Of a DNA stretch of 64,000 nucleotides, positions 8,961-58,132 are shown in pieces (the first letter of the stretch is position 1; each line of letters begins with the position of its first letter). Below the pieces are notes generated by a model that saw only the letters and a list, made by a program, of their open reading frames with translations, did no database searches and was not told where the DNA came from. This DNA comes from Pseudomonadota bacterium (GTDB lineage Bacteria > Myxococcota > JACRCW01 > JAFGSX01): positions 33,161 to 97,160 of the forward strand of contig JBDRCO010000108.1 of the NCBI GenBank assembly GCA_043821645.1, read 5' to 3'. The translations under genes and the position numbers were made by a program.

Positions 8961-10770
8961 CTACAGCTCTTCGCCCGGCTTGCCGGTGCCTTTGAGATCG
9001 ACCTTGCGCATGCGGATGCCGTGGGGTGTGACCTCGACCATCTCGTCGTCGCGGATCCACTCGAGGCTACGCTCCAGGGTCATCTCGCGCGGGGTGGCCA
9101 GGATCTGCTTCTCGTCGCGTCCCGCGGCGCGGATGTTGGTCAGCTTTTTCTCGCGGGCAGCGTGGACCCACAGGTCGTTCTCGCGGTTGTGCTCGCCAAT
9201 GACCATGCCTTGATAGAGCACCGCGCCCACACCGATGAACATCACACCGCGCGGTTGCAGGTGAAACAGGGCATAGGTCGTGCTGCTGCCGCCGCGATCG
9301 GCGACGATGGCCCCGGTGGGACGGTGGCCGATGGGCCCCTGCCAGGGCGTCCAGCCCTCGAACAGGTTGAACATGAGCGCGGTGCCGCGGGTATGGGTCA
9401 GGATATGGCCACGCAGACCCAGCATGCCGCGAGTGGGGGATGGTGTACTCGAGACGGATGCGGTCACCCTCGTAGCGCTGCTCTTCCATGCGCGCCCGGC
9501 GCGGACCCAGGAGCTCGCTCACCGCTCCCAGGTGCTCGGCCGGCACGTCGACGACGAGGCGCTCGAGAGGTTCCTCGAGACCCTGCGGGCCCTGGCGCGT
9601 GATCACCTGCGGCGTGCGCACACACAGCTCGTAGTCTTCGCGCCTCATGGATTCGATGAGCACGGCCAGCTGCAGCTCGCCACGGGCCAGCACCCGGAAA
9701 CGATCCGGTGTGTCGCCGTCCTCGACCCGGATGCTGACGTTGGCATAGGCCTCGCGCTTGAGACGATCGCGGAGGTGCCGGCTGGTCACGTAGCGGCCGC
9801 CGCTGCGCCCGGCCAGGGGGCCGTCGTTGACCTGGAACACCATGGCCACGGTGGGCTCGTCGATGACAACGGGGGGCAGATGGCGAGGTGCCTCGGGCGC
9901 GGACAGGGTATCCCCGACGTCGACCTCGGCGACGCCTGCAAGCGCCACGATGTCTCCCGCCGCGGCAGAGTCCAGGTCCAGCCTCTGCACGCCGCGATAG
10001 GTGTAGACCCCCACGATGCGCACCTGCTGATCGCGCCCCGGTCCACCCACGTGCACGGACTGGTTGGGCCGGATCTGGCCGGCCAGCACGCGGCCTATCA
10101 CCAGACGTCCGACGTAGTCGTCATAGCCGAGCCGGTTGACCTGCATGAGAAAGGGCTGGTCCCGGGTGTCGTCGGGTGGAGGCACGGTGTTCAGGACCGC
10201 GTCGACCAGAGGCCGCAGGTTGACCCCGGGCACCGCCAGATCCGTGGTCGCAGTTCCGGCGCGGGCATTGGTGTACAGGACGGGAAGGTCGAGTACCTCG
10301 TCCCCGGCGCCCAGGGCCAGGAACAGGTCATAGACCTCGTCGAGCACGGCCTCGGGACGCGCATCGCTGCGATCGATCTTGTTGATGACCACGATGGCCG
10401 GCAGTTTGCGTTCGAGTGCCTTGCGCAGCACGAAGCGGGTCTGCGGCAAGGGACCTTCGGCCGCGTCCACCAGCAGTAACACGCCATCGACCATGTGCAG
10501 GCTGCGCTCGACTTCACCGCCGAAGTCGGCGTGGCCTGGGGTGTCGACGAGCTGCAGGGTCACGTCGCCGAAGCGCACGCTGGTGGCCTTGGCCAGGATG
10601 GTGATGCCGCGCTCACGCTCCTGATCGCTTTGATCCATCAGGCACTCGGCGACCACCTGGTTGTCGCGGAACATACCGCCCTGACGGAACAGCGCGTCGA
10701 CCAGTGTGGTCTTGCCATGATCGACGTGAGCGATGATGGCGATGTTTCTCAGGTCGTGACGTATTGGCAT
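8961..10770 (-). pseudogene. typA: typA/bipA translational GTPase interrupted by a frameshift at a homopolymer (minus-strand C5; plus-strand G5 at ~9435-9439)
   Basis: N-terminal ORF (10770 down to the shift) reads 'MPIRHDLRNIAIIAHVDHGKTTLVDALF...RLEYTIPHSRHAG...' and then degenerates. The overlapping ORF 8961..9467 in another frame continues as canonical BipA: '...SPTRGMLGLRGHILTHTRGTALMFNLFEGW...'. Removing one C from CCCCC restores 'EYTIPTRGMLG'. Confidence 0.8.
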
Positions 10771-10869
10771 GCAGCCTTCCTGACAATTCGAAGCGCGCAC
10801 ATGTGAGGCATCGAGCGCGACCTGTCAATCGGCGATGCACGGCGCCTGCCCCTGCGCTATGGTCGGGGC

Positions 10870-11613
10870 ATGCGTGAGTTCTCCTTTGACTACGACCAAG
10901 TCCCGCCGGGTTACTACGACCGCATCGCGCGGCAGGGCACCGGCCTGCAGCGCGCCTGGCACGTGCACAAGTTCGAGTTTCTGATCGACACCCTGGGCCA
11001 CCACTTCGGTCAGGATCCGATGCATGTGCTCGACCTGGGCTGCGGGCCCGGCACCCTGCTCGGCATGCTCCGCGATCGGTTGACCATCACCGGAGTCGGA
11101 GTGGACATCGCCTCGGGGCAGCTCGAATACGCCCAGCGGACCTATGGCTCCGATGCGCTCCGATTCCTGGCCGCATCCTTCGAGGCCGAGGAGGTGCAGG
11201 ACGAGATGTCCCGCGCCGATGCCATCACCCTGGTCGAGGTGGTGGAACATCTGCCTCTGGATTATGTGTATCGCACCCTGAGTACGATTCACGCTCGCAT
11301 GAAGAAGGGGGCGATGCTCGTAATCACCACCCCCAACTACCTCAGCATCTGGCCGGTGCTCGAACGAGCCATCTCGGTCCTGGGCGAGCTCAACTACGAG
11401 GAGCAGCACATCCTGCACTTCAACCGCATCAAGCTGGTCAACCTGCTGGCGACAGTTGGCTTCGATGATATCCAGGTGCAGTCCTTCATGCAGTTCTCGC
11501 CCTTTGTCGCGGGTGTCCTCGGGTCGTCAGTGGGTCGCCTGGCCCGGAGAATCGAACAGCGAACCCTGCGTCATGCAGGTCCTCTGCTGTGCGCCCGGAC
11601 GGTCAAGATCTGA
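10870..11613 (+). CDS. Class I SAM-dependent methyltransferase
   Basis: Motif I 'VLDLGCGPGTL', post-I acidic 'VGVDIA', motif II region 'ITLVEVVEHL'. Confidence 0.7.
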   Translation: MREFSFDYDQVPPGYYDRIARQGTGLQRAWHVHKFEFLIDTLGHHFGQDPMHVLDLGCGPGTLLGMLRDRLTITGVGVDIASGQLEYAQRTYGSDALRFLAASFEAEEVQDEMSRADAITLVEVVEHLPLDYVYRTLSTIHARMKKGAMLVITTPNYLSIWPVLERAISVLGELNYEEQHILHFNRIKLVNLLATVGFDDIQVQSFMQFSPFVAGVLGSSVGRLARRIEQRTLRHAGPLLCARTVKI

Positions 11614-11660
11614 TTCCGCCGCTCGCCCGTGTTGAACCCGTCTCCATCCGGCCGCGCTGT

Positions 11661-12470
11661 TCAGGAGCGCGCCACCCATCGCCGGGCCTGAAGCTGGGCC
11701 GGGTCCATGCTCTTGCTGCGGCGTCGGCCCCGGCCAGGCGCCTGGGCTTCCTCGACGGTCTCGGGCAAGCGCAGCAAGGCGCCATAGCGCGCGTGCAGTT
11801 CGAGCATGTCTTGCAGGTATTCCGGGGACACGGTCTTGAGCTCATCAAACAGGCGGGCCACCAGCAGCGAGGGGTTGTAGGGCCCTGCAACCTCGGGCCG
11901 CCTGCGGGCTGCGCGGCGCAGCGAGGTGATGGTGCGAGTGCCGCGACTGGCGTGCTCGAGGAGCAGCACGCCTAGCACCTGGGCCAGGGTGCGCCCGCCT
12001 TCGGCCAGAGCGGTGGCCGTGGTCACGTCGACGGGTCCGAGGAGCAGATCGAGGCGCGCCTCCAGCGCCGCCGGGAGCCGCAGACCACGCTGGCGCAGGG
12101 CCCGGTTCAGAACCTGCAGGCGCGTCTGGAGTCCCCGCGCTCGCCGCGGCAAGGCCTGCCCGAGCTGACGGTGGAGCAAGCGAAGAGCTTGGGCATGCTC
12201 ACCGCGATGGGTGGCTTCCTGAACCTGCGTGTCTGCCTGCAGACCTCGACGGCTCAGCACCTCGAGGCTGCGCCTGAGCTCCGCGAAGAGGCCATCGCGG
12301 TGCTCCTCGAGCGTCTTCAGCCTGTCCTCGGCACGTGCCTCGAGACCGACCCCCGCAGCTCCAAGCTCACCGGCGCGCTCGAGCAGACCTTCGACGTAGC
12401 GAAGCTCCGGCAGGTCGTCCGCCGGGGTGGCACGCAGCGCGTCGAGGCGTTCCTGCAGCCCTTTCACGGC
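11661..12470 (-). CDS. Hypothetical protein (DUF2894-like), 4th gene of the MotAB-like operon; start approximate (GTG overlapping the upstream stop)
   Basis: Reading frame 'VTAVKGLQERLDALR...' begins inside the stop region of the OmpA-like gene. Arg/Leu-rich helical protein. The N-terminal 300 aa of the 564-aa six-frame ORF is an artefact. Confidence 0.4.
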   Translation of the reverse strand, partial: AVKGLQERLDALRATPADDLPELRYVEGLLERAGELGAAGVGLEARAEDRLKTLEEHRDGLFAELRRSLEVLSRRGLQADTQVQEATHRGEHAQALRLLHRQLGQALPRRARGLQTRLQVLNRALRQRGLRLPAALEARLDLLLGPVDVTTATALAEGGRTLAQVLGVLLLEHASRGTRTITSLRRAARRRPEVAGPYNPSLLVARLFDELKTVSPEYLQDMLELHARYGALLRLPETVEEAQAPGRGRRRSKSMDPAQLQARRWVARS

Positions 12471-13168
12471 TGTGACTCCACCTGCCGCAGCTCCGGCGTC
12501 ACAACCGCGGCCGTGGCGACATTCTTGGTGTGCACGCGCCGCGGCACTGGCGCGATCTCGACGCGGCGGTTGCGTGCACGGTTGTCGTCGCAGGAGTTGG
12601 GAACCGCAGGATGTTCCGGGCCAAAGGCCGCTGCGAACACCCGCTCCGACGGCAGGCCCATGTCGAGCAGGCTTCGCGCCACGGTGAGGGCACGCTCCGA
12701 CGACAGCTCCCAGTTGTCCCGATAGCGCCGCTGCATGCTCAGGTAGGGCAGATCGTCGGTGAAGCCGCTGACCATGATCAGCATCTCGGCATCGCCCTCG
12801 AGGTAGCGCGCCAGCGGGCCGGCCACTTCCTCGATCAAAGCTTCGGCGCCAGGCTGCAGGTCCGCCGAGTTGAGCTCGAACAGGAGTTGCCCGAGGATGC
12901 CGATGCGTCCCTCCTCGAGGGTGATGCGCCCCTCGGCCAGGGGGCGAGCCAGGGCCTGCTCCAGGGCCTCGCGACGCGCCTGTTCGGCGCCGCGAAGATC
13001 CTGCTCGCGACGCAGGGACTCGGCGAGATCGAGCTGGAACACCATCGCCCACACGAAGAGCAGCGCGAACAGGCCCAGCAATCCCGCCATGAGATCGCCG
13101 AAGAACACCCAGGCCAGGGGCGACTCCATCCGCGATGGGGAGGTCTGGGCGTCCGGAAGCAAGCTCAT
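12464..13168 (-). CDS. MotB/TolR-like stator subunit with C-terminal OmpA-family peptidoglycan-binding domain
   Basis: N-terminal TM helix preceded by a conserved Asp: 'WVFFGDLMAGLLGLFALLFVWAMVF' (compare MotB D32 and TolR D23). C-terminus shows the OmpA_C-like motif '...LIMVSGFTDDLPY...NWELSSERALTVARSLL...ARNRRVEI'. Confidence 0.8.
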   Translation of the reverse strand: MSLLPDAQTSPSRMESPLAWVFFGDLMAGLLGLFALLFVWAMVFQLDLAESLRREQDLRGAEQARREALEQALARPLAEGRITLEEGRIGILGQLLFELNSADLQPGAEALIEEVAGPLARYLEGDAEMLIMVSGFTDDLPYLSMQRRYRDNWELSSERALTVARSLLDMGLPSERVFAAAFGPEHPAVPNSCDDNRARNRRVEIAPVPRRVHTKNVATAAVVTPELRQVESQP

Positions 13169-15384
13169 GCGTGCTCCTCGCCGCGCAGGGTCTGCAGCTC
13201 CGCGAATAGCTCCTGCTGAAACTGCAGCGAATGGTCCACCGCGTCCCGGGTCTGGTCCAGGTACTCGGCCAGTTGATCCACGCTGGCGTGGCCCAGCTCG
13301 CGCAGGGTGCCATCGAGGCGTCCGAGCTGATCGAACCAGCGCTCGCTGCCCTCACGATAGCGGTCGACGGCCCGCACCAGCAGTTCGGCAGCCAGGGTCA
13401 ACTCGCCGCCACCGACTCCGAGCAGCAACACCACCTCGTTCAGCAAACTTGCGAGGCCATCGAGCTCGCGGCGTGGGCCCTCGATGGCGGTGCGCAGCGA
13501 CTCCGCCAGGCGCATGCCTTCGTCGGAGCGCGCCACGGCCAGCCGCTCCTCGAGGTCGACCATGGCCGCGTGCTGGCTCGCCACGGCCTGCCCTACCTGG
13601 GTGGCCAGCGCGGCCAGGCGCGCACCCTCGACCTCCCGTGCCGTCGTCAGCCGCTCCTCGAGTTCGACCAGTCCCTGCTGCTGGCTCGCCATGGCCTGCC
13701 CCACCTGGGCGGCGAGCGTGGCCAGGTGCTCGTCGGTGTGCTGGCGCGAACGTTCGAGCTGCTCGGCGCTGCGCGTGGCCAGGGTCGCCAGAGCCTCCGC
13801 CTGGCCCCGGGTCGCACTGTCGAGGGCACTGGCAGTCCGGGCGAAGCTCTGCTGCAGGTCCCCGGCGCGGCCCGACGCCTGAGCGTCCAGCTGCTCGAGG
13901 GTCGCGCACATGGCCTCGACCTGGTGCTGCAGCGCCGCAGCCTGGGCTTCGACGTGGTGTTGCAACGCCGCGGTCTGGGCCTCGCCCTGGGCACGCCACT
14001 GGGCCAGGGCCTCGGCCGTGCTCTCGAGCCCACCGCGCAGCGCCTCGGTCCGGACACGCTCCACCTCGTGCATCCATGCTTGCTGGAGTGCGCGCTGGTC
14101 CTCCAGCAGCTGGCCCGTGCGCTCCAGCTGCCCCTCGATGGCCAGCGCCGCATGCTCGCCCAGGGTCTGCCCCAGAGGAGCCAGCACCTCGCGCAGCGCG
14201 ATGGCCACGCGTTCGGTGCCCTCGACGATGCGCTGCTGGATCTCGGCCGACCCGTCGCGCCAGCTGCGACTCATGTCGTCGTGGAGCGCCGCGGTCGCGG
14301 CCTGGAGATCCTGGCCGAGCGTCTGCAAGGTCGTTGCACTCTGGGCGAGAAGGTCCAGCTGGCGTGCCGAGTCCGCGGCGAGCGTCGAGCTCAGCCCGGC
14401 CACGGCATCCTGCAGGGCCGTGCTGCTGTCTCGTGTCGAGACACGCTGCTCGTCGCGCAATGTCGTCGAGAGAGCGGCGATGGAGCTCACCAGGGCCTGA
14501 CCCTGGGTCTGCAACTGCGCGTTGAGCACCTCGCCAGCACCCGAGACAGCCGCTGCCTGGGCTTCGAGCTGGGCCTGGTGATTGTCCCGCAGGACCCGAT
14601 CGAGCTGGCTGAGCTGTGTGGCCTGGGTCTCGAGCTGCTGCTGCTGCGCCCGCGCCAGGTTGGTCTCGAGTGCCGCCATGCGCTCCACCGCCTGGTTCAG
14701 CGCCTCGGCGGCACGCGGCAGGGCCTCGCTGCCCTTCGCCATGGCCTCGATGGCGGCGAGCTGGCGTGCATCGGGACCCTGGCTGGCCAGGGGACCTGCG
14801 ACCCAGCGCTCGAGCTGGAGCTGCAAGAAGCGCTGGCGCCGCGCGCCGACCACGGCAGCCAGACCCAGGGCGGCAGAACCCGCCACGCCGGCCAGCGATG
14901 TGCCGAAGGCGCGGCTGAGCCCACCCAGGGGGCTCAGCAGGGCGGCGCGCATGGCGTCGATGTCACTGGTCGTGGCCAGGGCCGCGCGGGCTCCCCCCAA
15001 GGTCTGCACCAGACCGAGAAAGGTTCCGACCAGACCGAGCATGACCAGCAGACCCACCAGATAAGGAGCGAACACCGGTTGAGGCCAGGCCGCGGCGCGG
15101 CGGTGCAAGGTCGCCTCCAGCAAGCCCCGGACGGGTGCCGGTGCCGCGCCGGGACCCTCGCCGACACGGCTCTCGAAGGCGCGAAAGGCCAGGTCCAGAC
15201 CGTCGAGGGCGGCGGCGACGCGATCCAGCTCCAGCAAGCCCGCCAGCAGCCCCGCCCCCACCAGAAGCACCAGCACCAGGGCGGTGGTGTCCTCGCCGCG
15301 GTAACTCAACGCCACCGGCAGCACCAGTCCCAGACCCAGGGCCCCCACGAGCCACGTCATCAGGCGTGTCATGTGCGCTCTCAC
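13165..15384 (-). CDS. MotA/TolQ/ExbB-like ion-channel subunit (4 TM helices) fused to a ~550-aa repetitive coiled-coil tail (DUF802-like and ZorA-like architecture)
   Basis: N-terminal TMs include 'YLVGLLVMLGLVGTFLGLVQTLGG', matching the MotA/ExbB/TolQ 'GLxGTVxG' signature helix. The remainder is Ala/Gln/Leu-rich heptad coiled-coil with internal ~40-aa duplications. 4-bp overlaps with both neighbouring genes. Confidence 0.7.
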   Translation of the reverse strand: MRAHMTRLMTWLVGALGLGLVLPVALSYRGEDTTALVLVLLVGAGLLAGLLELDRVAAALDGLDLAFRAFESRVGEGPGAAPAPVRGLLEATLHRRAAAWPQPVFAPYLVGLLVMLGLVGTFLGLVQTLGGARAALATTSDIDAMRAALLSPLGGLSRAFGTSLAGVAGSAALGLAAVVGARRQRFLQLQLERWVAGPLASQGPDARQLAAIEAMAKGSEALPRAAEALNQAVERMAALETNLARAQQQQLETQATQLSQLDRVLRDNHQAQLEAQAAAVSGAGEVLNAQLQTQGQALVSSIAALSTTLRDEQRVSTRDSSTALQDAVAGLSSTLAADSARQLDLLAQSATTLQTLGQDLQAATAALHDDMSRSWRDGSAEIQQRIVEGTERVAIALREVLAPLGQTLGEHAALAIEGQLERTGQLLEDQRALQQAWMHEVERVRTEALRGGLESTAEALAQWRAQGEAQTAALQHHVEAQAAALQHQVEAMCATLEQLDAQASGRAGDLQQSFARTASALDSATRGQAEALATLATRSAEQLERSRQHTDEHLATLAAQVGQAMASQQQGLVELEERLTTAREVEGARLAALATQVGQAVASQHAAMVDLEERLAVARSDEGMRLAESLRTAIEGPRRELDGLASLLNEVVLLLGVGGGELTLAAELLVRAVDRYREGSERWFDQLGRLDGTLRELGHASVDQLAEYLDQTRDAVDHSLQFQQELFAELQTLRGEEHA
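13480..13760. repeat. Internal tandem duplication (~120-bp period) within the coiled-coil tail region of the MotA-like gene
   Basis: Protein blocks 'EHLATLAAQVGQAMASQQQGLVELEERLTTAREVEGARLAALATQVGQAVASQHAAMVDLEERLAVARSDEGMRLA' and matching near-identical DNA segments (ctcgaggtcgaccatggccgc... / ctcgagttcgaccagtccctgc...). Confidence 0.5.
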
Positions 15385-16265
15385 GCGTCGGCGAGGGCCA
15401 GCTCGCCGTCCGCTCCGTCGTGATTCATTTTTGTCGTCGGTTCTGCACTCGCTCGCAGCAGGGCGTCGATGCGCGAGCGCGCCAGGACGAGCATGGTCTG
15501 CGCCACCTGCTGCCCGAGCTCGAAGTGCACATGCACCCAGCCACCTGGCTCGAGGACCACGGCCAGGGCTTCGGGCGAGGACACCGGGCCGGAGCCCAGG
15601 GCCAGCTGCAGCCCACGTTCAAAGGCGGCATGGTAGGCCACCACCAGGCGCGCTTGCAGGCGCTCGAGGTCGCCGTGTGTCGCCGCCAGCAGAGCCGCAT
15701 CCAGCCTCTCCAGTCGCACCTGCCGCGGGCCCAGTGTGCGCAGGGCAGCGCCCAGGGGACGCCGCACGCGGGCCACCTCTCGCGGGATGAGCAGCAGGGC
15801 CTGTCGCAGGCGCAGGTCGAAGGGTGCAGCCATGCGATCCACCTGGCTGGTGTCCAGGGCACCGCGCGCCGTCAGTACACGATGCAGGCGGAACGGCGAC
15901 AGCATGCCACCCACACCCGCACCCTGGAGCTGGACCTGCAGCAGATTGGCCACACCCGCCAGCTCTTCCCGCGCCCTGGCGCGGATGCCCTCGAGGGTCG
16001 CGGGCCAGGGCCTCTCGTCCGTCTCCGACGTGGCGGCCGCTGCCTCCACACCCTCTGGCGACTGCGCTACGCCCGACCGCAGGGCAGCCTCGAGCGCGAT
16101 ACCACCGCGGAAATCGATGAGCGAGGTCAGGAAGACCGCGGGGTCCACGCCACGCTCCATCCCGAGAGCTTCGCGCTGGCCGGTGGACTGGCCAAGCAGG
16201 GCTCCCGCCAGGCGAAGGCGACGCACCACCGTGTCCAGGCTATCGACAAAGAGATCGAGCTGCAT
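15381..16265 (-). CDS. Hypothetical protein (DUF3348-like), first gene of the MotAB-like operon
   Basis: 294-aa Arg/Leu/Ala-rich protein with no TM segment and no catalytic motif. Its stop overlaps the start of the MotA-like gene. Confidence 0.4.
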   Translation of the reverse strand: MQLDLFVDSLDTVVRRLRLAGALLGQSTGQREALGMERGVDPAVFLTSLIDFRGGIALEAALRSGVAQSPEGVEAAAATSETDERPWPATLEGIRARAREELAGVANLLQVQLQGAGVGGMLSPFRLHRVLTARGALDTSQVDRMAAPFDLRLRQALLLIPREVARVRRPLGAALRTLGPRQVRLERLDAALLAATHGDLERLQARLVVAYHAAFERGLQLALGSGPVSSPEALAVVLEPGGWVHVHFELGQQVAQTMLVLARSRIDALLRASAEPTTKMNHDGADGELALADA

Positions 16266-16469
16266 GAGGGGTGCGTGCCTAGCGCCTCTTCACCGGCGTG
16301 GCAAGTCGCGAAGACGGTTCCGCGGCAGGGCGCTGATCCTGGCTTGACGGCGTGCACCCCACGTGACCATCCCTTGTGCATGACAAGCGACCGACAGCAC
16401 CCGACCACTCCCGCGCACACCACCGCCCAGGCAGCGGGCGGGAGCTGATGCGCGAGCGCGCCGACCCGG
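16266..16469. promoter_or_regulatory. ~200-bp divergent intergenic region between the MotAB-like operon (minus strand) and hgcAB (plus strand); presumed to hold both promoters
   Basis: This is the only sizeable non-coding gap in the region. No consensus promoter could be read confidently. Confidence 0.3.
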
Positions 16470-17543
16470 GTGGTCAGGCCACGGCTGGATCAAGCTTTTG
16501 TCGACGGTGTGGTCCCCACGGCCGTGGGCCTGGTGCCCCGCGTCACCTCGCTCCTGAGCAGTGCGGATCGATGGAATGCCACCAAGGTGCGCTGGCGCTT
16601 CGGCCGCGACGACTACCGCGTGGATCCCGGCCTGTATGCCCTCCACCATCCGGATGCCGACGCGCCTGTGCTGGTCACCGCCAACTACAAGCTCAGCTTC
16701 GACGCACTGCGTGAGCCGCTGGCCGAGCTCAACGCGTGGATCCTCGTGCTCGACACCCGTGGCATCAACGTCTGGTGCGCCGCCGGCAAGGGAAGCTTCT
16801 CCACCGACGAGGTGGTGCGCCAGGTCGAGGCGAGCCGCCTGGCCAGCCTGGTCTCGCACCGCACCCTGGTGCTGCCCCAGCTCGGCGCGCCCGGCGTGGC
16901 CGCCCACGAGGTCAAGTCCGGCTGCGGCTTCAAGGTGCGCTACGGCCCCATCCGCAGCGACGATGTGCCGGCCTTTCTGGCGGCGGGTTCGCGCGCAACG
17001 GCGCAGATGCGACGCAAGAGCTTTGACCTGCGCGAGCGGGTCACCCTGATCCCGGTCGAGCTGGTGGGCGCCTTGCCGGCGGCGGCGGGCGTGCTGATCG
17101 GCGCGGTGCTGCTGGCCGCCCTGGTCTGGCCTGGATCCCTGGCCACCGCGGCCCGGGATCACGGGCTGCCCCTGGCCCTGTCCACGCTGCTCGGATTGAT
17201 CGGCGGCGCGGTGCTGGTGCCGACGCTGCTGCCCTGGCTGCCCGGACGCGCCTTCGCCTTCAAGGGGCTGCTCGCGGGTCTGCCGCTGGTGCTGATCCTG
17301 GTGGCGCTGCTTCGCCCAGAGCACTGGTCGCTATCGACGGGGTTGGAGGCCATGGCCTGGGTGGCTTTGACCGCGGCCGTGGCCAGCTACCTGGGCATGA
17401 TGTTCACGGGTTCGAGCAGTTTCACTTCGCTCTCCGGCGTGCGGCGGGAAATGCGCCTGGCGGTGCCGCTCCAGCTGGCGGGGCTGGTCGTCGCCGTGGC
17501 GACCTGGGTGGGTGCTCGCGTCGTCGCGGGAGGTGGCACGTGA
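16470..17543 (+). CDS. hgcA: HgcA, corrinoid protein of mercury methylation (N-terminal corrinoid-binding domain plus C-terminal multi-TM domain)
   Basis: Diagnostic cap-helix motif 'GINVWCAAGKGSFST'. The conserved N-terminal 'PRV...DRW...YRVDPGLYAL' block resembles HgcA. C-terminal ~150 aa contains 4-5 TM helices. GTG start. Confidence 0.85.
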   Translation: MVRPRLDQAFVDGVVPTAVGLVPRVTSLLSSADRWNATKVRWRFGRDDYRVDPGLYALHHPDADAPVLVTANYKLSFDALREPLAELNAWILVLDTRGINVWCAAGKGSFSTDEVVRQVEASRLASLVSHRTLVLPQLGAPGVAAHEVKSGCGFKVRYGPIRSDDVPAFLAAGSRATAQMRRKSFDLRERVTLIPVELVGALPAAAGVLIGAVLLAALVWPGSLATAARDHGLPLALSTLLGLIGGAVLVPTLLPWLPGRAFAFKGLLAGLPLVLILVALLRPEHWSLSTGLEAMAWVALTAAVASYLGMMFTGSSSFTSLSGVRREMRLAVPLQLAGLVVAVATWVGARVVAGGGT

Positions 17544-54271: not shown

Positions 54272-54506
54272 GAGCACTCCAGCAGCGAGGACACTCACGG
54301 TCAGCAGCCTTACCGCGCCACGCCCCGCTGTGGTCAAGAACAACACCGCACCGACGTAGGGTCCACGGCGCGCTGCGGCAAGGTGAAAAGATCCGAGGCT
54401 GACTGCTTCGAGGTGGTTGGCTTGCGCCGTGGCGTCGTGGATAATGCCCGCTGGCGGTCGCGCCTTCCGTGATCTCGGACCGAGACGGCCACCACCGGAG
54501 GTACTC

Positions 54507-56015
54507 ATGGCCCGCTGGGCGGGAGAGATGGAGTTCGAGTTCGTCGACGGCGGCGAGGAGGAGGGCGGCGCCTTCGTCGCCACCAGCAAGGTCGTGCAGT
54601 TCCTGCGCAACCACCTGGCCCGGGGTGAGGTCGAGCAGGCCGCCCGGCTGTACGAGGAAACCGGCGCCAGCGTCACCGCAGACCTCCTGGCCGAGGCCAA
54701 GTCCGCGTCGTCGACCACCCAGAAGAACCTGGCTGAGATGTTCACCCTGGCCCGCGACTTCGCAAGTGCGGCCAAGGTGTTCGAGCAGGCCAAGGATTTC
54801 ACACAGGCTGCCAGAGCCTACGAGCAGGCCAGTGACTACGCCTCCGCAGCCCGGTGCTTCCAGAAAGTTGGTGAAGACGGACGTGCGGCTGCCGCGCTGG
54901 AACGCGCGGGTCAGCTCGACGCCGCCTTGGAGCTCTATCGCAAGGCGGGGCCGTCGGACGCCCTGGCCGAGTGCCTGGCCCGGCAGCGCCGCTACATGGA
55001 GGCCGCCAGGGTCTACGAGCACACCAGCAACACGCGCGCCGAAGTCGAGATGCTGCGCATGGTGCCCATCGATGACCCGAACCGCGTGCCGGCCGTGGAG
55101 CGTCTGGCCGAACTGCTCGAGCGCTTTGGCCGCATGGACCAGGCCGTGCAGCTCATCGTCGACACCGTGCGCCAGTGTGAGGCTGCCCGGGCCTACGCAC
55201 CGCTCTACGACAGGTTGGCGCGCTTGCTCGAGGGGCTCGGCCGCTTCGATCAAGCGCAGATGGTGCGCGCTCGCATCCAGGACCAGCTCGGCGGCACCGT
55301 CATGGGTGAGCGCAAGGCACTCCCCGTGCAGGGCGTGGACACCGGACACGACCCCTTGACTCCAGGTCCTGCGGTCCTCCCCAACGCGATGCGGGAGGCG
55401 CCACCCCCCATTGCAGGTATCCCCGTGACGACGGTGCTGGGCAGTGCGCCGCCGGTGCAGGCCATGAACGCCATGCCCGCGCCGGTACAGGTGATCCTGC
55501 CCCCGGCCCCGACCACGAGCAGCGACCCCTTCAGCTCGCTCATCGATCCCTTCGAGAGTCGTGGCGCCGGTGCCGCGCCCGCTGTCGACGCCTATGCCCA
55601 GCTCAAGGCCATCCCCATCTTCGGTGAGCTGGCCATGCAGGACATGAAGGACCTCTACCGCGCCTCGCAGGAGGTCATGTACGCGTCGGGCGAACCCATC
55701 ATCGAGCAGGGGGTGCGTGGCAACGGCCTGACCGTGATCCTGGCGGGCGAGGTGCAGGTTCAGCGGGTCGACGACGGCGTTGCCAAGGCCCTGGCGACGC
55801 TTGGCGCAGGTGCCTACATCGGCGAGATGTCCCTGGTAGACGACGCCCCGACCTCGGCCCGGGTCGTGGCGAACGCACCGGTGCGAGGTCTGTACATCGC
55901 TCGGGAACGGTTTGACCAGTACCTGTACAGCCACGAGACTGCGGCACTGCGCATCTTTCGACTGTTCACCAAGACCCTGGCCGATCGCCTGCGCCAGTCC
56001 AACGTGCGACGCTAG
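54507..56015 (+). CDS. TPR-like repeat protein with C-terminal cyclic-nucleotide-binding (CAP_ED) domain
   Basis: N-terminal Ala-rich helical repeats. C-terminal '...FGELAMQDMKDLYRASQEVMYASGEPIIEQGVRGNGLTVILAGEV...GEMSLVDDAPTSARVVA' cNMP-binding beta-barrel pattern (G-E...A phosphate-binding cassette). Confidence 0.55.
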   Translation: MARWAGEMEFEFVDGGEEEGGAFVATSKVVQFLRNHLARGEVEQAARLYEETGASVTADLLAEAKSASSTTQKNLAEMFTLARDFASAAKVFEQAKDFTQAARAYEQASDYASAARCFQKVGEDGRAAAALERAGQLDAALELYRKAGPSDALAECLARQRRYMEAARVYEHTSNTRAEVEMLRMVPIDDPNRVPAVERLAELLERFGRMDQAVQLIVDTVRQCEAARAYAPLYDRLARLLEGLGRFDQAQMVRARIQDQLGGTVMGERKALPVQGVDTGHDPLTPGPAVLPNAMREAPPPIAGIPVTTVLGSAPPVQAMNAMPAPVQVILPPAPTTSSDPFSSLIDPFESRGAGAAPAVDAYAQLKAIPIFGELAMQDMKDLYRASQEVMYASGEPIIEQGVRGNGLTVILAGEVQVQRVDDGVAKALATLGAGAYIGEMSLVDDAPTSARVVANAPVRGLYIARERFDQYLYSHETAALRIFRLFTKTLADRLRQSNVRR

Positions 56016-56071: not shown

Positions 56072-58132
56072 TTGCGAATGAGCCAAGCACCACCGCGTGT
56101 CCCGGCACCCCTCATCCCGCCTTCCGACGGCACGCCGCCTCCGGTGACCGGGACCATCCAGACCCAGACCACGCTGCTCGACGGCATTGCCCTGTTCCAG
56201 CCTCTGCCAGCCCAGCTCAAACAACAGTTGCAGGCCCAGCTTACCCGCCGCTCGCTCAAGTCCGGCGAGGTGCTGTTCAACGCCGGTGACGTCGGCGATG
56301 CCATGTACCTGATCCACTCGGGCATGGTGTCGGTGTACCTCAGCGACCGCAACCTGGGTCTCACCTATGAGCTGGCCAAGCTCGGTGCCGGACAGGCCTT
56401 TGGCGAGATGGCCCTGGTCACGGGTGAGCCGCGCTCGGCCAGCGTGCGCGCCATCGACGATGCCAACCTGCTGCAGCTGTCGCGAGACGTGTTCTTCAAG
56501 CTGGTCAATGCGGCACCGCAGGTTGCCCTGACCATCGCCCAGGTGCTAGCCAAGCGTCTGGATCAGCACAACAAGGCGCAAGGCATCGAGTTCGGCGCGC
56601 TGCGCGACATCAAGTTCGATCCCGCGGCCCTCGAGCTGATCCCGGCCCCCCTGATCAAGCGCCACCGGATGGTGCCCGTCGCCGTCGCCGGGGGCATCGT
56701 CACAGTCGCCACGCCGGACCCCGGCAATCGGCTGGGCGTCGATGACCTGCGCCGACTCCTGCGGGGCATGGAGATCAAGCTGCTCGCGGTGAGCGCCGCG
56801 GACTTCGACGCCTTCGTGACCAAGCATGTGGCCACCGCGGCGGAGCGTCCCGTGGCGGCGGTCTCGCGTGGCGACTTCACCCAGCTGGCGCGCCAGATCG
56901 TTTATCAGGGCAGCCCGGGGAGCGAACGCGATGACAGCGCCCGGCTCAAGCAGGTGGCGTCAGGGCAAGACGTTGTGGACCTGCTGTCCGCCATTCTGGC
57001 CGAGGGCATCGAGCGCGGCGCCTCGGACATCCATCTCGAGCCCGACCGCAATCGACTGGTCGTGCGCTACCGCATCGATGGTCGGCTCAGCTTCCGGGAC
57101 GGCACCATCCCGTCCAGCGTGCATCTGCCCCTGATGTCCCGGCTCAAGATCCTGGCCTCCCTCGACATTGCCGAAAAGCGCCTGCCGCAGGACGGCCGGA
57201 TCTCGCTCGACATGGGACCCAAGAGTTACGACCTGCGCATGGCCACGGTGAACACCAAGTACGGAGAGAAGGCCACGCTGCGAATTCTCGACAGCTCGCA
57301 GCTCGAGCAGAACCTGGCCAGCCTGGTGCTCGCCGACAAGGTGAGCCAGGTCGTGCGCAAGCTGTTCTACCGCCCCAATGGCCTGGTGCTGGTCACCGGT
57401 CCGACCGGCAGCGGCAAGACCACCACCCTGTACGCGGCCCTCAAGGAGCGGCACAACCCCGAGCTCTCGATCTGTACCATCGAGGATCCCATCGAGTATG
57501 ACGTGCCGGGCATCACCCAGGTGCAGGTCAACGACGGCATCAACCTGGGCTTCGCCGAGGTCATGCGCACCTTCCTGCGCCAGGACCCCGACGTCATCCT
57601 GGTCGGAGAGACCCGCGACGCCACCACGGCCAAGCTCGCCTGCAACGCGGCGCTCACCGGGCACCTCGTGCTGTCGTCGTTCCACACCAACGATGCCATC
57701 AGCGCCCTGATGCGTCTGCGTGAGATGGAGATCGAGCCCTTTGTCCTCGCCGGCGCCTTGCTCGGGGTGATCAACCAGCGTCTGGTGCGCCGCATCTGTC
57801 CGAACTGCCGGGTCGAGTCGAGCTACTCCGAGGTCATCAAGCAGAACCTGGCCCGCGCCGGCGTCGCCCTCGAGACCTCGGCCAAGTTGTACAAGGGTGC
57901 TGGTTGCCAGGCCTGCAATGGCGAGGGCTACAAGGGCCGCATCGGAGTGTTCGAGCTGCTCGTCGTCAGCGCCAACGTGCGCGAGGCCATCGCCCAGGAG
58001 GGCAGCACCGCCGCCATCCAGCTCGCAGCCCAGGACGGGAGCTTCGTGTCCCTGGCGCGCTACTCGACGTTCCTGCTGCAAGAGGGGCTGACGGTGCCCA
58101 GCGAGGTGCTACGCATCTTGCCCAAGGAGTGA
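56072..58132 (+). CDS. GspE/PilB-type secretion ATPase with an N-terminal cyclic-nucleotide-binding domain (cNMP-T2SSE_N-ATPase fusion)
   Basis: CAP_ED ('FGEMALVTGEPRSASVRA'), T2SSE_N ('RMVPVAVAGGIVTVATPDP'), Walker A 'LVLVTGPTGSGKTTTLYA', Asp box, Walker B 'DPDVILVGETRD', His box 'LTGHLVLSSFHTNDA', tetra-Cys 'CPNC...CQAC'. Confidence 0.8.
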   Translation: MRMSQAPPRVPAPLIPPSDGTPPPVTGTIQTQTTLLDGIALFQPLPAQLKQQLQAQLTRRSLKSGEVLFNAGDVGDAMYLIHSGMVSVYLSDRNLGLTYELAKLGAGQAFGEMALVTGEPRSASVRAIDDANLLQLSRDVFFKLVNAAPQVALTIAQVLAKRLDQHNKAQGIEFGALRDIKFDPAALELIPAPLIKRHRMVPVAVAGGIVTVATPDPGNRLGVDDLRRLLRGMEIKLLAVSAADFDAFVTKHVATAAERPVAAVSRGDFTQLARQIVYQGSPGSERDDSARLKQVASGQDVVDLLSAILAEGIERGASDIHLEPDRNRLVVRYRIDGRLSFRDGTIPSSVHLPLMSRLKILASLDIAEKRLPQDGRISLDMGPKSYDLRMATVNTKYGEKATLRILDSSQLEQNLASLVLADKVSQVVRKLFYRPNGLVLVTGPTGSGKTTTLYAALKERHNPELSICTIEDPIEYDVPGITQVQVNDGINLGFAEVMRTFLRQDPDVILVGETRDATTAKLACNAALTGHLVLSSFHTNDAISALMRLREMEIEPFVLAGALLGVINQRLVRRICPNCRVESSYSEVIKQNLARAGVALETSAKLYKGAGCQACNGEGYKGRIGVFELLVVSANVREAIAQEGSTAAIQLAAQDGSFVSLARYSTFLLQEGLTVPSEVLRILPKE

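What the first reader, a model, noticed from the sequence alone, without database searches (positions are those of the whole stretch)
11661..16265. Four-gene operon built around a MotA-like channel with a ~550-aa coiled-coil tail and a MotB/OmpA partner: ZorAB-like architecture without Zorya effectors
The 739-aa protein has a MotA/ExbB/TolQ-type 4-TM N-terminus, including the GLxGTxxG signature helix, and then a very long repetitive coiled-coil. The next gene is a MotB-like protein with the conserved pre-TM Asp and an OmpA peptidoglycan anchor. This length and domain architecture match ZorA (~730 aa) and ZorB (~240 aa) of Zorya anti-phage systems, but no ZorC/D/E homologue (SNF2 helicase, HNH nuclease) is present. 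Instead the pair is flanked by two small helical proteins of unknown function. The arrangement recalls the uncharacterised DUF3348-DUF802-OmpA-DUF2894 neighbourhood seen in Burkholderia and Xanthomonas. All four genes overlap by 4 bp, which indicates translational coupling. No function has been assigned to this class of ion-driven stator with a tail; candidates are envelope signalling or defence.
Basis: partly seen in the sequence, partly recalled or inferred. Interest (0 to 1): 0.85.

Follow-up and report, generated by a model that had tools for sequence, protein, structure and literature searches.

The report
Divergent type III Zorya defence operon
The four genes are a distant relative of the already described "Zorya type III" anti-phage system, a membrane proton motor with a very long internal tail and two small helper proteins, so this is a new member of a known kind whose way of stopping phages is still unknown.

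Summary
Four co-directional minus-strand genes lie at 11661..16265.

- **g1 (294 aa):** an all-helical protein.
- **g2 (735/739 aa):** four N-terminal hydrophobic segments, the GLVGTFLG motif and a 554-residue amphipathic-helix tail.
- **g3 (234 aa):** a MotB-like protein with an invariant Asp25 and an OmpA domain.
- **g4 (268 aa):** a DUF2894 protein.

The interpretation needs correcting. This class is not unassigned. It is Zorya type III (DUF3348-ZorA-ZorB-DUF2894), named in 2021, and one member was shown to protect E. coli from phages.

PADLOC models hit g2 (ZorA3, 6e-62), g3 (ZorB3, 2e-81) and g4 (ZorF3, 2e-9). g1 escapes the curated DUF3348 and ZorG3 models. A profile of its homologues nevertheless matches canonical upstream genes (hhalign 97.6%, E 3.6e-12), and 14 of its 28 homologues hit DUF3348.

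The four-gene order recurs in about 60-76 of 77 related loci. The nearest relatives are Myxococcota MAGs. No ZorC, ZorD or ZorE is present, and no enzymatic fold was found in g1.

The likely mechanism is a peptidoglycan-anchored ZorA5B2 proton motor that signals through its tail to the two helical partners. That is inferred, not shown. Verdict: a divergent new member of a known kind, of modest interest. Bona fide hgcAB mercury-methylation genes lie next door.

The parts
15381..16265 (-). g1: 294-aa all-alpha protein, a remote DUF3348 relative (named ZorG3 in PADLOC-DB and ZorF in the text of Payne 2021). It is the first gene of the operon.
13165..15384 (-). g2: ZorA (type III), 739 aa from GTG 15384 or 735 aa from ATG 15372.
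   Evidence: PADLOC ZorA3 PDLC00648 scores 6e-62 over residues 5-734. The ZorA1 and ZorA2 models hit residues 103-176. NCBIfam ZorA_1 and ZorA_2 are weak and below cutoff on 110-176. Homologues include DUF802 proteins. NCBI calls the 735-aa form.
14842..15366 (-). g2 membrane head, residues 7-181. It has four predicted hydrophobic segments and the GLVGTFLG motif (117-124). Invariant residues are T121, S163 and S170.
   Evidence: Hydropathy is and the invariant columns. The head-only profile hits solved ZorA 8vvn_C at 6.2e-7, aligning GllGTflGl with GVIGTFMGL and FGtSvAGV with FLTSVWGV.
13168..14829 (-). g2 cytoplasmic tail, residues 186-739 (554 aa). It is an A/L/Q/E/R-rich amphipathic helix and net acidic.
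   Evidence: Composition, few prolines and a 3.6-3.65-residue hydrophobic periodicity, with 0 of 300 shuffles reaching it. The full-length profile hits the tails of ZorA 8vvn_C and 8qyd_A among generic helical proteins.
13516..13731 (-). A 36-residue tandem duplication inside the tail (residues 552-587 and 588-623).
   Evidence: Ungapped BLOSUM62 score of 100 between the two 36-mers.
12464..13168 (-). g3: ZorB (type III), 234 aa. It has one TM segment and an OmpA-like peptidoglycan-binding domain.
   Evidence: PADLOC ZorB3 scores 2.1e-81. NCBIfam PRK09040 scores 271 bits against a cutoff of 194. Pfam OmpA scores 4.7e-16 on residues 96-201. The PDB search hits MotB/PomB domains and 8vvn_B.
13094..13096 (-). 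Codon of ZorB Asp25 (GAT), the putative proton-carrying aspartate.
   Evidence: Read from the sequence. It is invariant in 77 of 77 aligned relatives. It corresponds by position to EcZorB Asp26, which is essential for defence (PMC11946911).
12566..12883 (-). OmpA-like domain of g3 (residues 96-201), with D151-N152-x2-L155-x3-R159 and NRRVEI at 200.
   Evidence: The N/L/R spacing is the same as the PG-binding residues Asn152, Leu155 and Arg159 of EcZorB.
11661..12467 (-). g4: 268-aa DUF2894 protein (named ZorF3 in PADLOC-DB and ZorG in the text of Payne 2021). It is net basic with an R/K-rich C-terminus and is the last gene of the operon.
   Evidence: Pfam DUF2894 scores 28.7 bits against a cutoff of 25. 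PADLOC ZorF3 scores 2.4e-9. NCBI names it a DUF2894 domain-containing protein. An iterated HMM hits the downstream ORF in 59 of 67 loci. The conserved motif is AGPxNxxxLxxRxLxxMxxxSPxYL. The AF2 model is all-alpha but low confidence, with pLDDT 68 and pTM 0.44.
16266..16469 (.). A 204-bp divergent intergenic region between g1 and hgcA. It is the presumed promoter region of the operon.
   Evidence: Position only. No sigma-70-type match or terminator was found in 11400..16600, so this assignment is an inference.

Best explanation
The locus is a divergent type III Zorya system with the gene order DUF3348-like, ZorA, ZorB, DUF2894.

By homology with the solved type I and II complexes, five ZorA subunits should surround two ZorB subunits in the inner membrane. 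ZorB would be fixed to peptidoglycan by its OmpA-like domain and would carry the proton-binding Asp25. Proton flow would turn the ZorA ring around ZorB. The roughly 550-residue ZorA C-terminus would form a helical bundle reaching about 80 nm into the cytoplasm, if it is one continuous helix as in E. coli ZorA.

When a phage disturbs the envelope, the motor would be released. The signal would pass down the tail to the two soluble all-helical proteins, which replace ZorC/ZorD (type I) or ZorE (type II).

Shown here:
- the family assignments of all four proteins;
- conservation of Asp25, the PG-binding motif and the polar TM residues;
- the conserved, self-contained four-gene cassette.

Shown elsewhere, for one family member only: protection of E. 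coli against phages.

Inferred: the 5:2 stoichiometry, proton dependence, tail length, the trigger, and everything about what the two helical proteins do. No nuclease or other catalytic fold is detectable in them. I therefore expect them to act as adaptors or regulators, for example recruiting a host factor or altering motor or channel activity, rather than as enzymes.
For: - PADLOC ZorA3 6e-62 (full length), ZorB3 2.1e-81 and ZorF3 2.4e-9.
- NCBIfam PRK09040 and Pfam OmpA and DUF2894 score above their curated cutoffs.
- The head-only profile hits the solved ZorA chain 8vvn_C at 6.2e-7, and the g3 N-terminus hits its partner 8vvn_B.
- g1 links to DUF3348 through 14 of 28 homologues and hhalign at 97.6%, E 3.6e-12.
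- In 77 loci, an upstream ORF is present in 76, ZorB in 76 and a downstream ORF in 67. Family HMMs hit 62 of 76 upstream and 59 of 67 downstream ORFs.
- Flanking genes are shared only within genera, so no fifth conserved partner exists.
- Asp25 is invariant in 77 of 77 relatives, and N152/L155/R159 are spaced as in EcZorB.
- The tail has helical periodicity.
- Literature: type III is defined as DUF3348 + ZorAB + DUF2894, and the S. nitritireducens system is active against phages in E. coli (PMC8565338). The canonical order is zorGABF (PMC11946911).
Against: - g1 is not recognised by the curated DUF3348 or ZorG3 models, or by an HMM of 61 canonical upstream ORFs. PADLOC's full type III rule would probably not fire.
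- g2 has no Pfam DUF802 or MotA_ExbB hit. It is at most 35% identical over full length to anything known.
- The locus sits among housekeeping and metabolic genes (hgcAB, typA, a methyltransferase), not in a defence island.
- No relative was found on plasmids or phages.
- No effector activity can be read from g1 or g4.
- Defence has been shown for only one distant family member, over-expressed in a heterologous host.
- Predicted topology (four hydrophobic segments) differs from the three TM helices of E. coli ZorA. Mechanistic transfer from type I is therefore not guaranteed.
Confidence: 0.75

Rival explanations
1. The cassette is a housekeeping envelope device rather than an immune system. On this view it is a peptidoglycan-anchored proton motor that senses or transduces envelope stress, or energises an envelope process, in the manner of Tol-Pal or ExbBD. 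The phage protection seen for a relative would be a side effect of over-expression.
For: - The neighbours are metabolic or housekeeping genes, not defence genes.
- There are no plasmid or phage copies at tblastn sensitivity.
- Flanks are stable within genera, which fits vertical inheritance.
- No nuclease or other effector fold was found in g1.
- The family is very common in some orders: 458 relatives in one scan and 6,401 systems in Payne 2021.
Against: - A type III system reduced plaquing and prevented culture collapse in E. coli (PMC8565338).
- ZorF3 and ZorG3 transcripts rise on phage exposure in S. maltophilia (bioRxiv 10.64898/2026.01.02.697320).
- Neighbourhoods differ between families, as expected of a self-contained mobile cassette.
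- ZorA and ZorB are homologous to proven defence motors.
Confidence: 0.15
2. It is a canonical stator or energiser (flagellar MotAB/PomAB, gliding-motility AglRQS, TolQR or ExbBD) that merely resembles Zorya.
For: - The g3 OmpA domain is closest in the PDB to MotB/PomB domains.
- The nearest relatives are in Myxococcota, which use MotAB-like gliding motors (the gliding motors are own knowledge).
Against: - No Pfam MotA_ExbB hit to g2.
- All NCBIfam MotB, MotD and MotS scores are far below cutoffs, whereas PRK09040 and ZorB3 are far above.
- A 554-residue tail is absent from those stators.
- No flagellar, Tol, TonB or gliding genes are adjacent.
- The conserved DUF3348 and DUF2894 partners are specific to Zorya III.
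Confidence: 0.03
3. It is a decaying, non-functional remnant of a Zorya III cassette in a MAG. That would explain why g1 and g2 escape the curated models.
For: - g1 and g2 are highly divergent.
- The same contig carries an apparent frameshift in typA, so assembly or pseudogene problems do occur.
Against: - All four ORFs are intact and tightly coupled.
- GC3 is 0.80-0.86, like the neighbouring genes.
- Functionally critical residues are retained.
- The same divergent type recurs in several Myxococcota MAGs with intact synteny.
- g1 folds confidently in silico.
Confidence: 0.05

Closest known systems
Zorya type III (PADLOC; tested example from Stenotrophomonas nitritireducens DSM 12575; common in Burkholderia, Xanthomonas, Stenotrophomonas and Ralstonia)
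   Same: - The same four-gene order on one strand: DUF3348, ZorA, ZorB, DUF2894.
- ZorA3, ZorB3 and ZorF3 models hit strongly.
- The ZorA tail is long.
- There is no ZorC, ZorD or ZorE.
   Different: - It is very divergent. The ZorA head is 35-41% identical to betaproteobacterial and Marinobacter copies and 44-48% identical to Myxococcota MAG copies.
- ZorA has no Pfam DUF802 hit.
- The DUF3348 partner is recognisable only by profile-profile comparison.
- The host is an uncultured MAG that carries hgcAB.
- Activity is untested.
Zorya type I (E. coli ZorABCD; PDB 8QYD; Shewanella ZorAB 8VVN)
   Same: - ZorA head TM motifs: GxxGTFxG and FxTSxxGV.
- A ZorB aspartate in the TM helix.
- PG-binding Asn/Leu/Arg at the same positions, 152/155/159.
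- A tail of about 500-550 residues.
   Different: - There is no ZorC (DNA binding) or ZorD (helicase-nuclease).
- Four predicted hydrophobic segments are found, rather than three TM helices.
- ZorB here has a single Cys, so the two disulfides of EcZorB cannot form.
- Sequence similarity is detectable only with profiles.
Zorya type II (ZorABE)
   Same: The ZorAB core. ZorA2 and ZorB2 models give weak hits.
   Different: There is no ZorE HNH nuclease. The accessory genes flank ZorAB instead of following it.
Flagellar stators MotAB/PomAB
   Same: - An ion-driven 5:2 motor family.
- An OmpA-like PG anchor, which is the closest solved domain to that of g3.
- A possibly MotA-like four-segment topology.
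   Different: - The 554-residue tail.
- No flagellar context.
- Curated MotB models score below cutoff.
- No MotA_ExbB Pfam hit.

Membership tests
Zorya type III | ZorA of the type III subfamily: a MotA-like membrane head plus a long C-terminal tail | tested here: met
   PADLOC ZorA3 PDLC00648 scores 6e-62 over residues 5-734 of the protein and 1-682 of 692 in the profile. The head-only profile hits solved ZorA 8vvn_C at 6.2e-7. The tail is 554 aa with helical periodicity. Caveat: Pfam DUF802 gives no hit.
Zorya type III | ZorB with a TM aspartate and an OmpA-like peptidoglycan-binding domain, encoded directly after ZorA | tested here: met
   PADLOC ZorB3 scores 2.1e-81. NCBIfam PRK09040 scores 271 bits against a cutoff of 194. 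Pfam OmpA scores 4.7e-16. D25 is invariant in 77 of 77 relatives. The genes overlap as ATGA.
Zorya type III | DUF2894 protein encoded directly after ZorB | tested here: met
   Pfam PF11445 scores 28.7 bits against a cutoff of 25. PADLOC ZorF3 scores 2.4e-9. The genes overlap as GTGA.
Zorya type III | DUF3348 protein encoded directly before ZorA | tested here: inconclusive
   The curated models fail: Pfam PF11828 and PADLOC ZorG3 give no hit at E<=10, and an HMM of 61 canonical upstream ORFs does not hit g1. Indirect evidence is strong. Of g1's 28 homologues, 14 hit DUF3348 and ZorG3. hhalign of the g1 family against the canonical upstream ORFs gives 97.6%, E 3.6e-12. Position and size are the same. 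I treat g1 as a remote member, but by profile-profile evidence only.
Zorya type III | Canonical gene order on one strand (zorGABF) | tested here: met
   The order is given in PMC11946911. It recurs in the related loci.
Zorya type III | Confers resistance to phage infection | not testable with these tools
   This has been shown only for the S. nitritireducens system in E. coli (PMC8565338).
Zorya type I / type II | ZorC plus ZorD (SNF2/DEAD helicase-nuclease), or ZorE (HNH), next to ZorAB | tested here: not met
   The neighbours are HgcA, HgcB, a LysM protein, a methyltransferase, TypA, DUF2141 and EamA. No Zor model hits the ten largest other proteins of the window.
ZorA5B2 / MotA5B2 5:2 rotary motors | 5:2 stoichiometry and proton-driven rotation | not testable with these tools
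   No multimer prediction is offered. The assignment is inferred from homology to 8vvn and 8qyd.
Flagellar MotAB / TolQR / ExbBD | Match to the MotA_ExbB family and curated MotB, TolR or ExbD models, in a flagellar, Tol or TonB gene context | tested here: not met
   Pfam MotA_ExbB gives no hit at E<=10. NCBIfam MotB, MotD and MotS score 45-91 bits against cutoffs of 250-300. No such genes are adjacent.

The most novel reading that the evidence does not exclude
The Myxococcota-type branch to which this locus belongs might be a functionally distinct ZorAB-derived motor. Its features are a DUF3348 partner invisible to current models, a ZorA without a DUF802 match, a possible four-segment MotA-like topology, and no defence-island context. 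It might report envelope damage to non-enzymatic helical adaptors for a purpose other than, or broader than, phage DNA destruction. If so, Zorya type III as a whole would work without any nuclease, for example by controlled proton leak or abortive infection, or by recruiting host factors.
Probability: 0.12. Interest if true: 0.6.

Novelty: new member of a known kind. Interest (0 to 1): 0.3.

Why it matters
The practical value is mainly for annotation. This shows a clade of Zorya type III cassettes, chiefly in Myxococcota MAGs, whose first gene is missed by the Pfam and PADLOC models. Rule-based defence finders will probably under-call these systems as incomplete. The alignments made here (A1 and A4) could seed better models.

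Biologically, type III is the Zorya subtype with no described mechanism. Neither accessory protein shows a catalytic fold, so any member adds comparative data on which residues and features are indispensable. Those retained here are Asp25, the PG-binding motif, the long tail, the LRxLGPxAARLERLDAAL motif in the DUF3348-like protein and the AGPxN...SPxYL motif in DUF2894.

None of this changes what is already known about the system class.

Tried and rejected
- The search for related loci with the single g2 protein found no confirmed relative. It worked only with the head alignment.
- The word-index search found only g1 itself and only two homologues of g4.
- The look-up of encoding contigs has no record for P0002 or P0093, so the source contig's own gene calls could not be read.
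- phmmer of full-length g2 against the PDB gave nothing meaningful. The full-length profile was swamped by apolipoprotein and coiled-coil hits. I therefore made a head-only profile.
The three-sequence run gave pLDDT 68 and pTM 0.44, so I did not run a fold search on it.
- The afdb50 library was unavailable, so g1 could not be matched structurally to annotated DUF3348 models.
- tblastn of g2 and its head against plasmids and phages found no match. TM and low-complexity masking may reduce sensitivity.
- The promoter and terminator scan found nothing.
- I looked for a conserved fifth gene or a Rosetta-stone fusion. Flanks are conserved only within genera. The enlarged flanking proteins in Polyangiales loci (446 and 643 aa) have no Pfam hits on record.
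- I rejected a flagellar, Tol or Exb stator and a standard type I or II Zorya; see the membership tests.
Full report
**1. What is in the sequence**

- g1 is 15381..16265 (294 aa).
- g2 is 13165..15384 (739 aa from GTG).
- g3 is 12464..13168 (234 aa).
- g4 is 11661..12467 (268 aa, GTG start).

The g2/g3 junction is ATGA and the g3/g4 junction is GTGA, so both are genuine 4-bp overlaps. The g1/g2 junction is a GTGA overlap only if the GTG start is used. NCBI's call (735 aa) and the alignment of homologues, which all begin at the residue aligned with Met5, favour the ATG at 15372. That start leaves an 8-nt gap. All four ORFs have the codon-position GC pattern of the neighbouring genes, with GC3 of 0.80-0.86.

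**2. The motor pair**

*g2 (ZorA).* g2 has four hydrophobic segments: 7-28, 30-57, 101-132 and 161-181. GLVGTFLG lies at 117-124. Family-invariant residues include G117, G120, T121, G124, F160, G161, S163 and S170.

From residue 186 the protein is A/L/Q/E/R-rich, almost lysine-free and net acidic. It has only three prolines after residue 223. Its hydrophobic periodicity is 3.6-3.65 residues along the whole 554-residue tail, and 0 of 300 shuffles reach that signal. This periodicity is closer to a hendecad pattern than to a heptad pattern. There is one clear 36-residue tandem duplication, at 552-587 and 588-623.

Pfam gives no hit to g2 even at E<=10, neither MotA_ExbB nor DUF802. PADLOC's ZorA3 model matches end to end at 6e-62. 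The ZorA1 and ZorA2 models, and NCBIfam ZorA_1 and ZorA_2, touch residues 103-176.

A profile built from the head domains of 16 homologues hits the solved ZorA chain 8vvn_C at 6.2e-7. It aligns GllGTflGl with GVIGTFMGL and FGtSvAGV with FLTSVWGV.

*g3 (ZorB).* g3 matches ZorB3 at 2.1e-81. It matches NCBIfam PRK09040 at 271 bits (cutoff 194) and Pfam OmpA at 4.7e-16. Its N-terminus hits 8vvn_B, the partner chain of 8vvn_C.
- Asp25 is invariant in 77 of 77 relatives.
- The motif D151-N152-x2-L155-x3-R159 reproduces, at the same residue numbers, the Asn152, Leu155 and Arg159 peptidoglycan-binding residues that are essential in E. coli ZorB.
- g3 has a single cysteine, so the two disulfides of EcZorB are not conserved.

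**3. The two flanking proteins**

*g4.* g4 is a DUF2894 protein. Pfam scores it at 28.7 bits against a cutoff of 25, and PADLOC ZorF3 at 2.4e-9. NCBI gives it the same name.

*g1.* g1 is the difficult one. Pfam, NCBIfam and PADLOC give no hit, and the word-index search found only g1 itself.

An exhaustive HMMER search found 52 relatives, of which about 28 are of similar size and match along their full length. Aligned, they share LRxLGPxAARLERLDAAL and a few invariant residues. Fourteen of the 28 hit Pfam DUF3348 and PADLOC ZorG3.

Profile-profile comparison of this family against 61 upstream ORFs from canonical (non-Myxococcota) loci gives 97.6% probability, E 3.6e-12, over 217 columns. An HMM of those canonical ORFs alone does not reach g1. 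So g1 is a remote DUF3348 relative that lies outside the reach of the curated models.

g4 could be modelled only with three sequences (pLDDT 68, pTM 0.44). The model is helical but not trustworthy.

**4. Conservation elsewhere**

A scan of one genome per species with the head alignment found 458 relatives, of which 80 were kept. The nearest are Polyangiaceae, Myxococcales and 'Deltaproteobacteria' MAGs, at 44-48% identity in the head. Burkholderiales, Rhodocyclales and Marinobacter copies are at 35-41%.

Among 77 loci with a ZorA hit:
- 76 have an upstream ORF of about 190-300 aa abutting ZorA;
- 76 have ZorB;
- 67 have a further ORF abutting ZorB;
- the g1-family HMM hits 62 of the 76 upstream ORFs;
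- an iterated g4 HMM hits 59 of the 67 downstream ORFs.

The misses are probably wrong frame choices among overlapping high-GC ORFs. Annotated examples show the same layout, including a locus with DUF3348 and DUF2894 called by Pfam and divergent ones with no Pfam call.

Genes beyond the four are shared only within genera such as Limnohabitans and Marinobacter. The cassette is therefore self-contained, and no fifth partner exists. No relative was found on plasmids or phages by tblastn.

**5. What is already known**

Payne et al. 2021 defined Zorya type III as ZorAB flanked by a DUF3348 and a DUF2894 protein and counted 6,401 instances. They showed that the Stenotrophomonas nitritireducens system reduces plaquing and prevents culture collapse at low MOI in E. 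coli (PMC8565338).

Hu et al. give the canonical order as zorGABF and note that long tails occur in all subtypes. For type I they show:
- a ZorA5B2 proton-driven motor;
- an essential ZorB Asp26;
- essential PG-binding residues;
- a pentameric tail of about 70 nm whose full length is required;
- recruitment of ZorC and ZorD to degrade phage DNA (PMC11946911).

Mariano et al. list type III as frequent in Burkholderia, Xanthomonas, Stenotrophomonas and Ralstonia (PMC11890865).

I found no mechanistic study of type III in the library. There are only transcript changes on phage exposure.

The names ZorF and ZorG are used inconsistently between the 2021 text and PADLOC-DB, so I use the domain names here.

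**6. Mechanism**

The most likely reading is a peptidoglycan-anchored, proton-driven ZorA5B2 complex. Its long acidic tail would relay an envelope-perturbation signal to the two helical proteins.

The family assignments and residue conservation are shown here. Defence is shown only for a distant relative. Stoichiometry, energisation, tail length (about 80 nm if it is one continuous helix), the trigger and the output are all inferred.

Neither accessory protein shows an enzyme fold, and g4 is net basic with an R/K-rich C-terminus. I therefore expect adaptor or regulator roles rather than catalysis.

The four predicted hydrophobic segments suggest a MotA-like topology rather than the three TM helices of EcZorA. 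This rests on hydropathy alone.

**7. Rivals**

- *A housekeeping envelope role.* The non-defence neighbourhood and the lack of an effector fold favour it. The published phage protection and the variable context between families count against it.
- *A flagellar, gliding, Tol or Exb stator.* The curated models and the gene context exclude this.
- *A decaying remnant.* This is unlikely given intact, coupled ORFs, retained key residues and recurrence of the same divergent type in other MAGs.

**8. Verdict**

This is a divergent new member of a known kind. Its main value is in showing a clade that current models under-detect. The unknown effector mechanism of type III remains the interesting open question, but this locus does not by itself make it more tractable.

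**9. In passing**

The genes divergently transcribed from the operon are bona fide hgcA and hgcB. NCBIfam scores are 421 bits against a cutoff of 275, and 114 bits against a cutoff of 99. The source MAG is therefore a candidate mercury methylator.

Noticed in passing
window 16470..17543 (+) and 17540..17860 (+): This is an hgcA/hgcB mercury-methylation gene pair with a 4-bp overlap, divergently transcribed from the Zorya operon across a 204-bp gap. HgcA scores 421 bits on NCBIfam NF040863 (cutoff 275) and carries the NVWCAAGKG cap-helix motif. HgcB scores 114 bits on NF040864 (cutoff 99) and has C-terminal cysteines. The MAG is therefore a candidate mercury methylator. The adjacency to Zorya is not conserved in relatives.
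   Followed up: partly
window 8961..10800 (-): typA/bipA appears frameshifted. The 577-aa ORF 9067..10800 starts as a normal translational GTPase but ends in arginine/proline-rich nonsense. The true C-terminus continues in another frame in ORF 8961..9467. This is either an assembly error in the MAG or a pseudogene.
   Followed up: no
window 54417..56015 (+) and 56072..58132 (+): Two adjacent proteins of 532 and 686 aa each match positions 29-147 of PADLOC 'TIR effector' and PycTIR models (E from 1e-15 to 4e-10). The match covers only the N-terminal part of those profiles, so it may be a cyclic-nucleotide-binding-type domain rather than a TIR effector. The pair lies about 40 kb from the operon.
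   Followed up: no
window 18024..20570 (+); L001/L002 11174..12487: An 848-aa LysM-domain protein lies two genes from the operon. In the Polyangiales relatives a LysM + Peptidase_M23 protein follows the cassette directly. This is possibly coincidence, or possibly a loose link between these cassettes and peptidoglycan-binding proteins.
   Followed up: no
L001 4664..6004 and 9161..11092; L009 1824..3542: In some Polyangiales and Polyangiaceae loci the proteins flanking ZorAB are much larger than here: 446 and 643 aa in L001, and an ORF of up to 572 aa in L009. They still match the g1 and g4 family HMMs. The extra regions have no Pfam hit on record. They could carry the missing effector function.
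   Followed up: no
window 13426..13485 (g2 residues 651-670): A hydrophobic stretch (LLNEVVLLLGVGGGELTLAAELLV, Kyte-Doolittle mean 1.76) sits near the tip of the otherwise amphipathic ZorA tail. It lies next to nearly invariant family positions E661, V673 and L687. It is a possible docking site for the soluble partners.
   Followed up: no
literature and PADLOC-DB: The names ZorF and ZorG are swapped between sources. The text of Payne 2021 has ZorF = DUF3348 and ZorG = DUF2894. The PADLOC-DB models have ZorF3 = DUF2894 and ZorG3 = DUF3348. Hu et al. write both zorFABG and zorGABF.
   Followed up: yes
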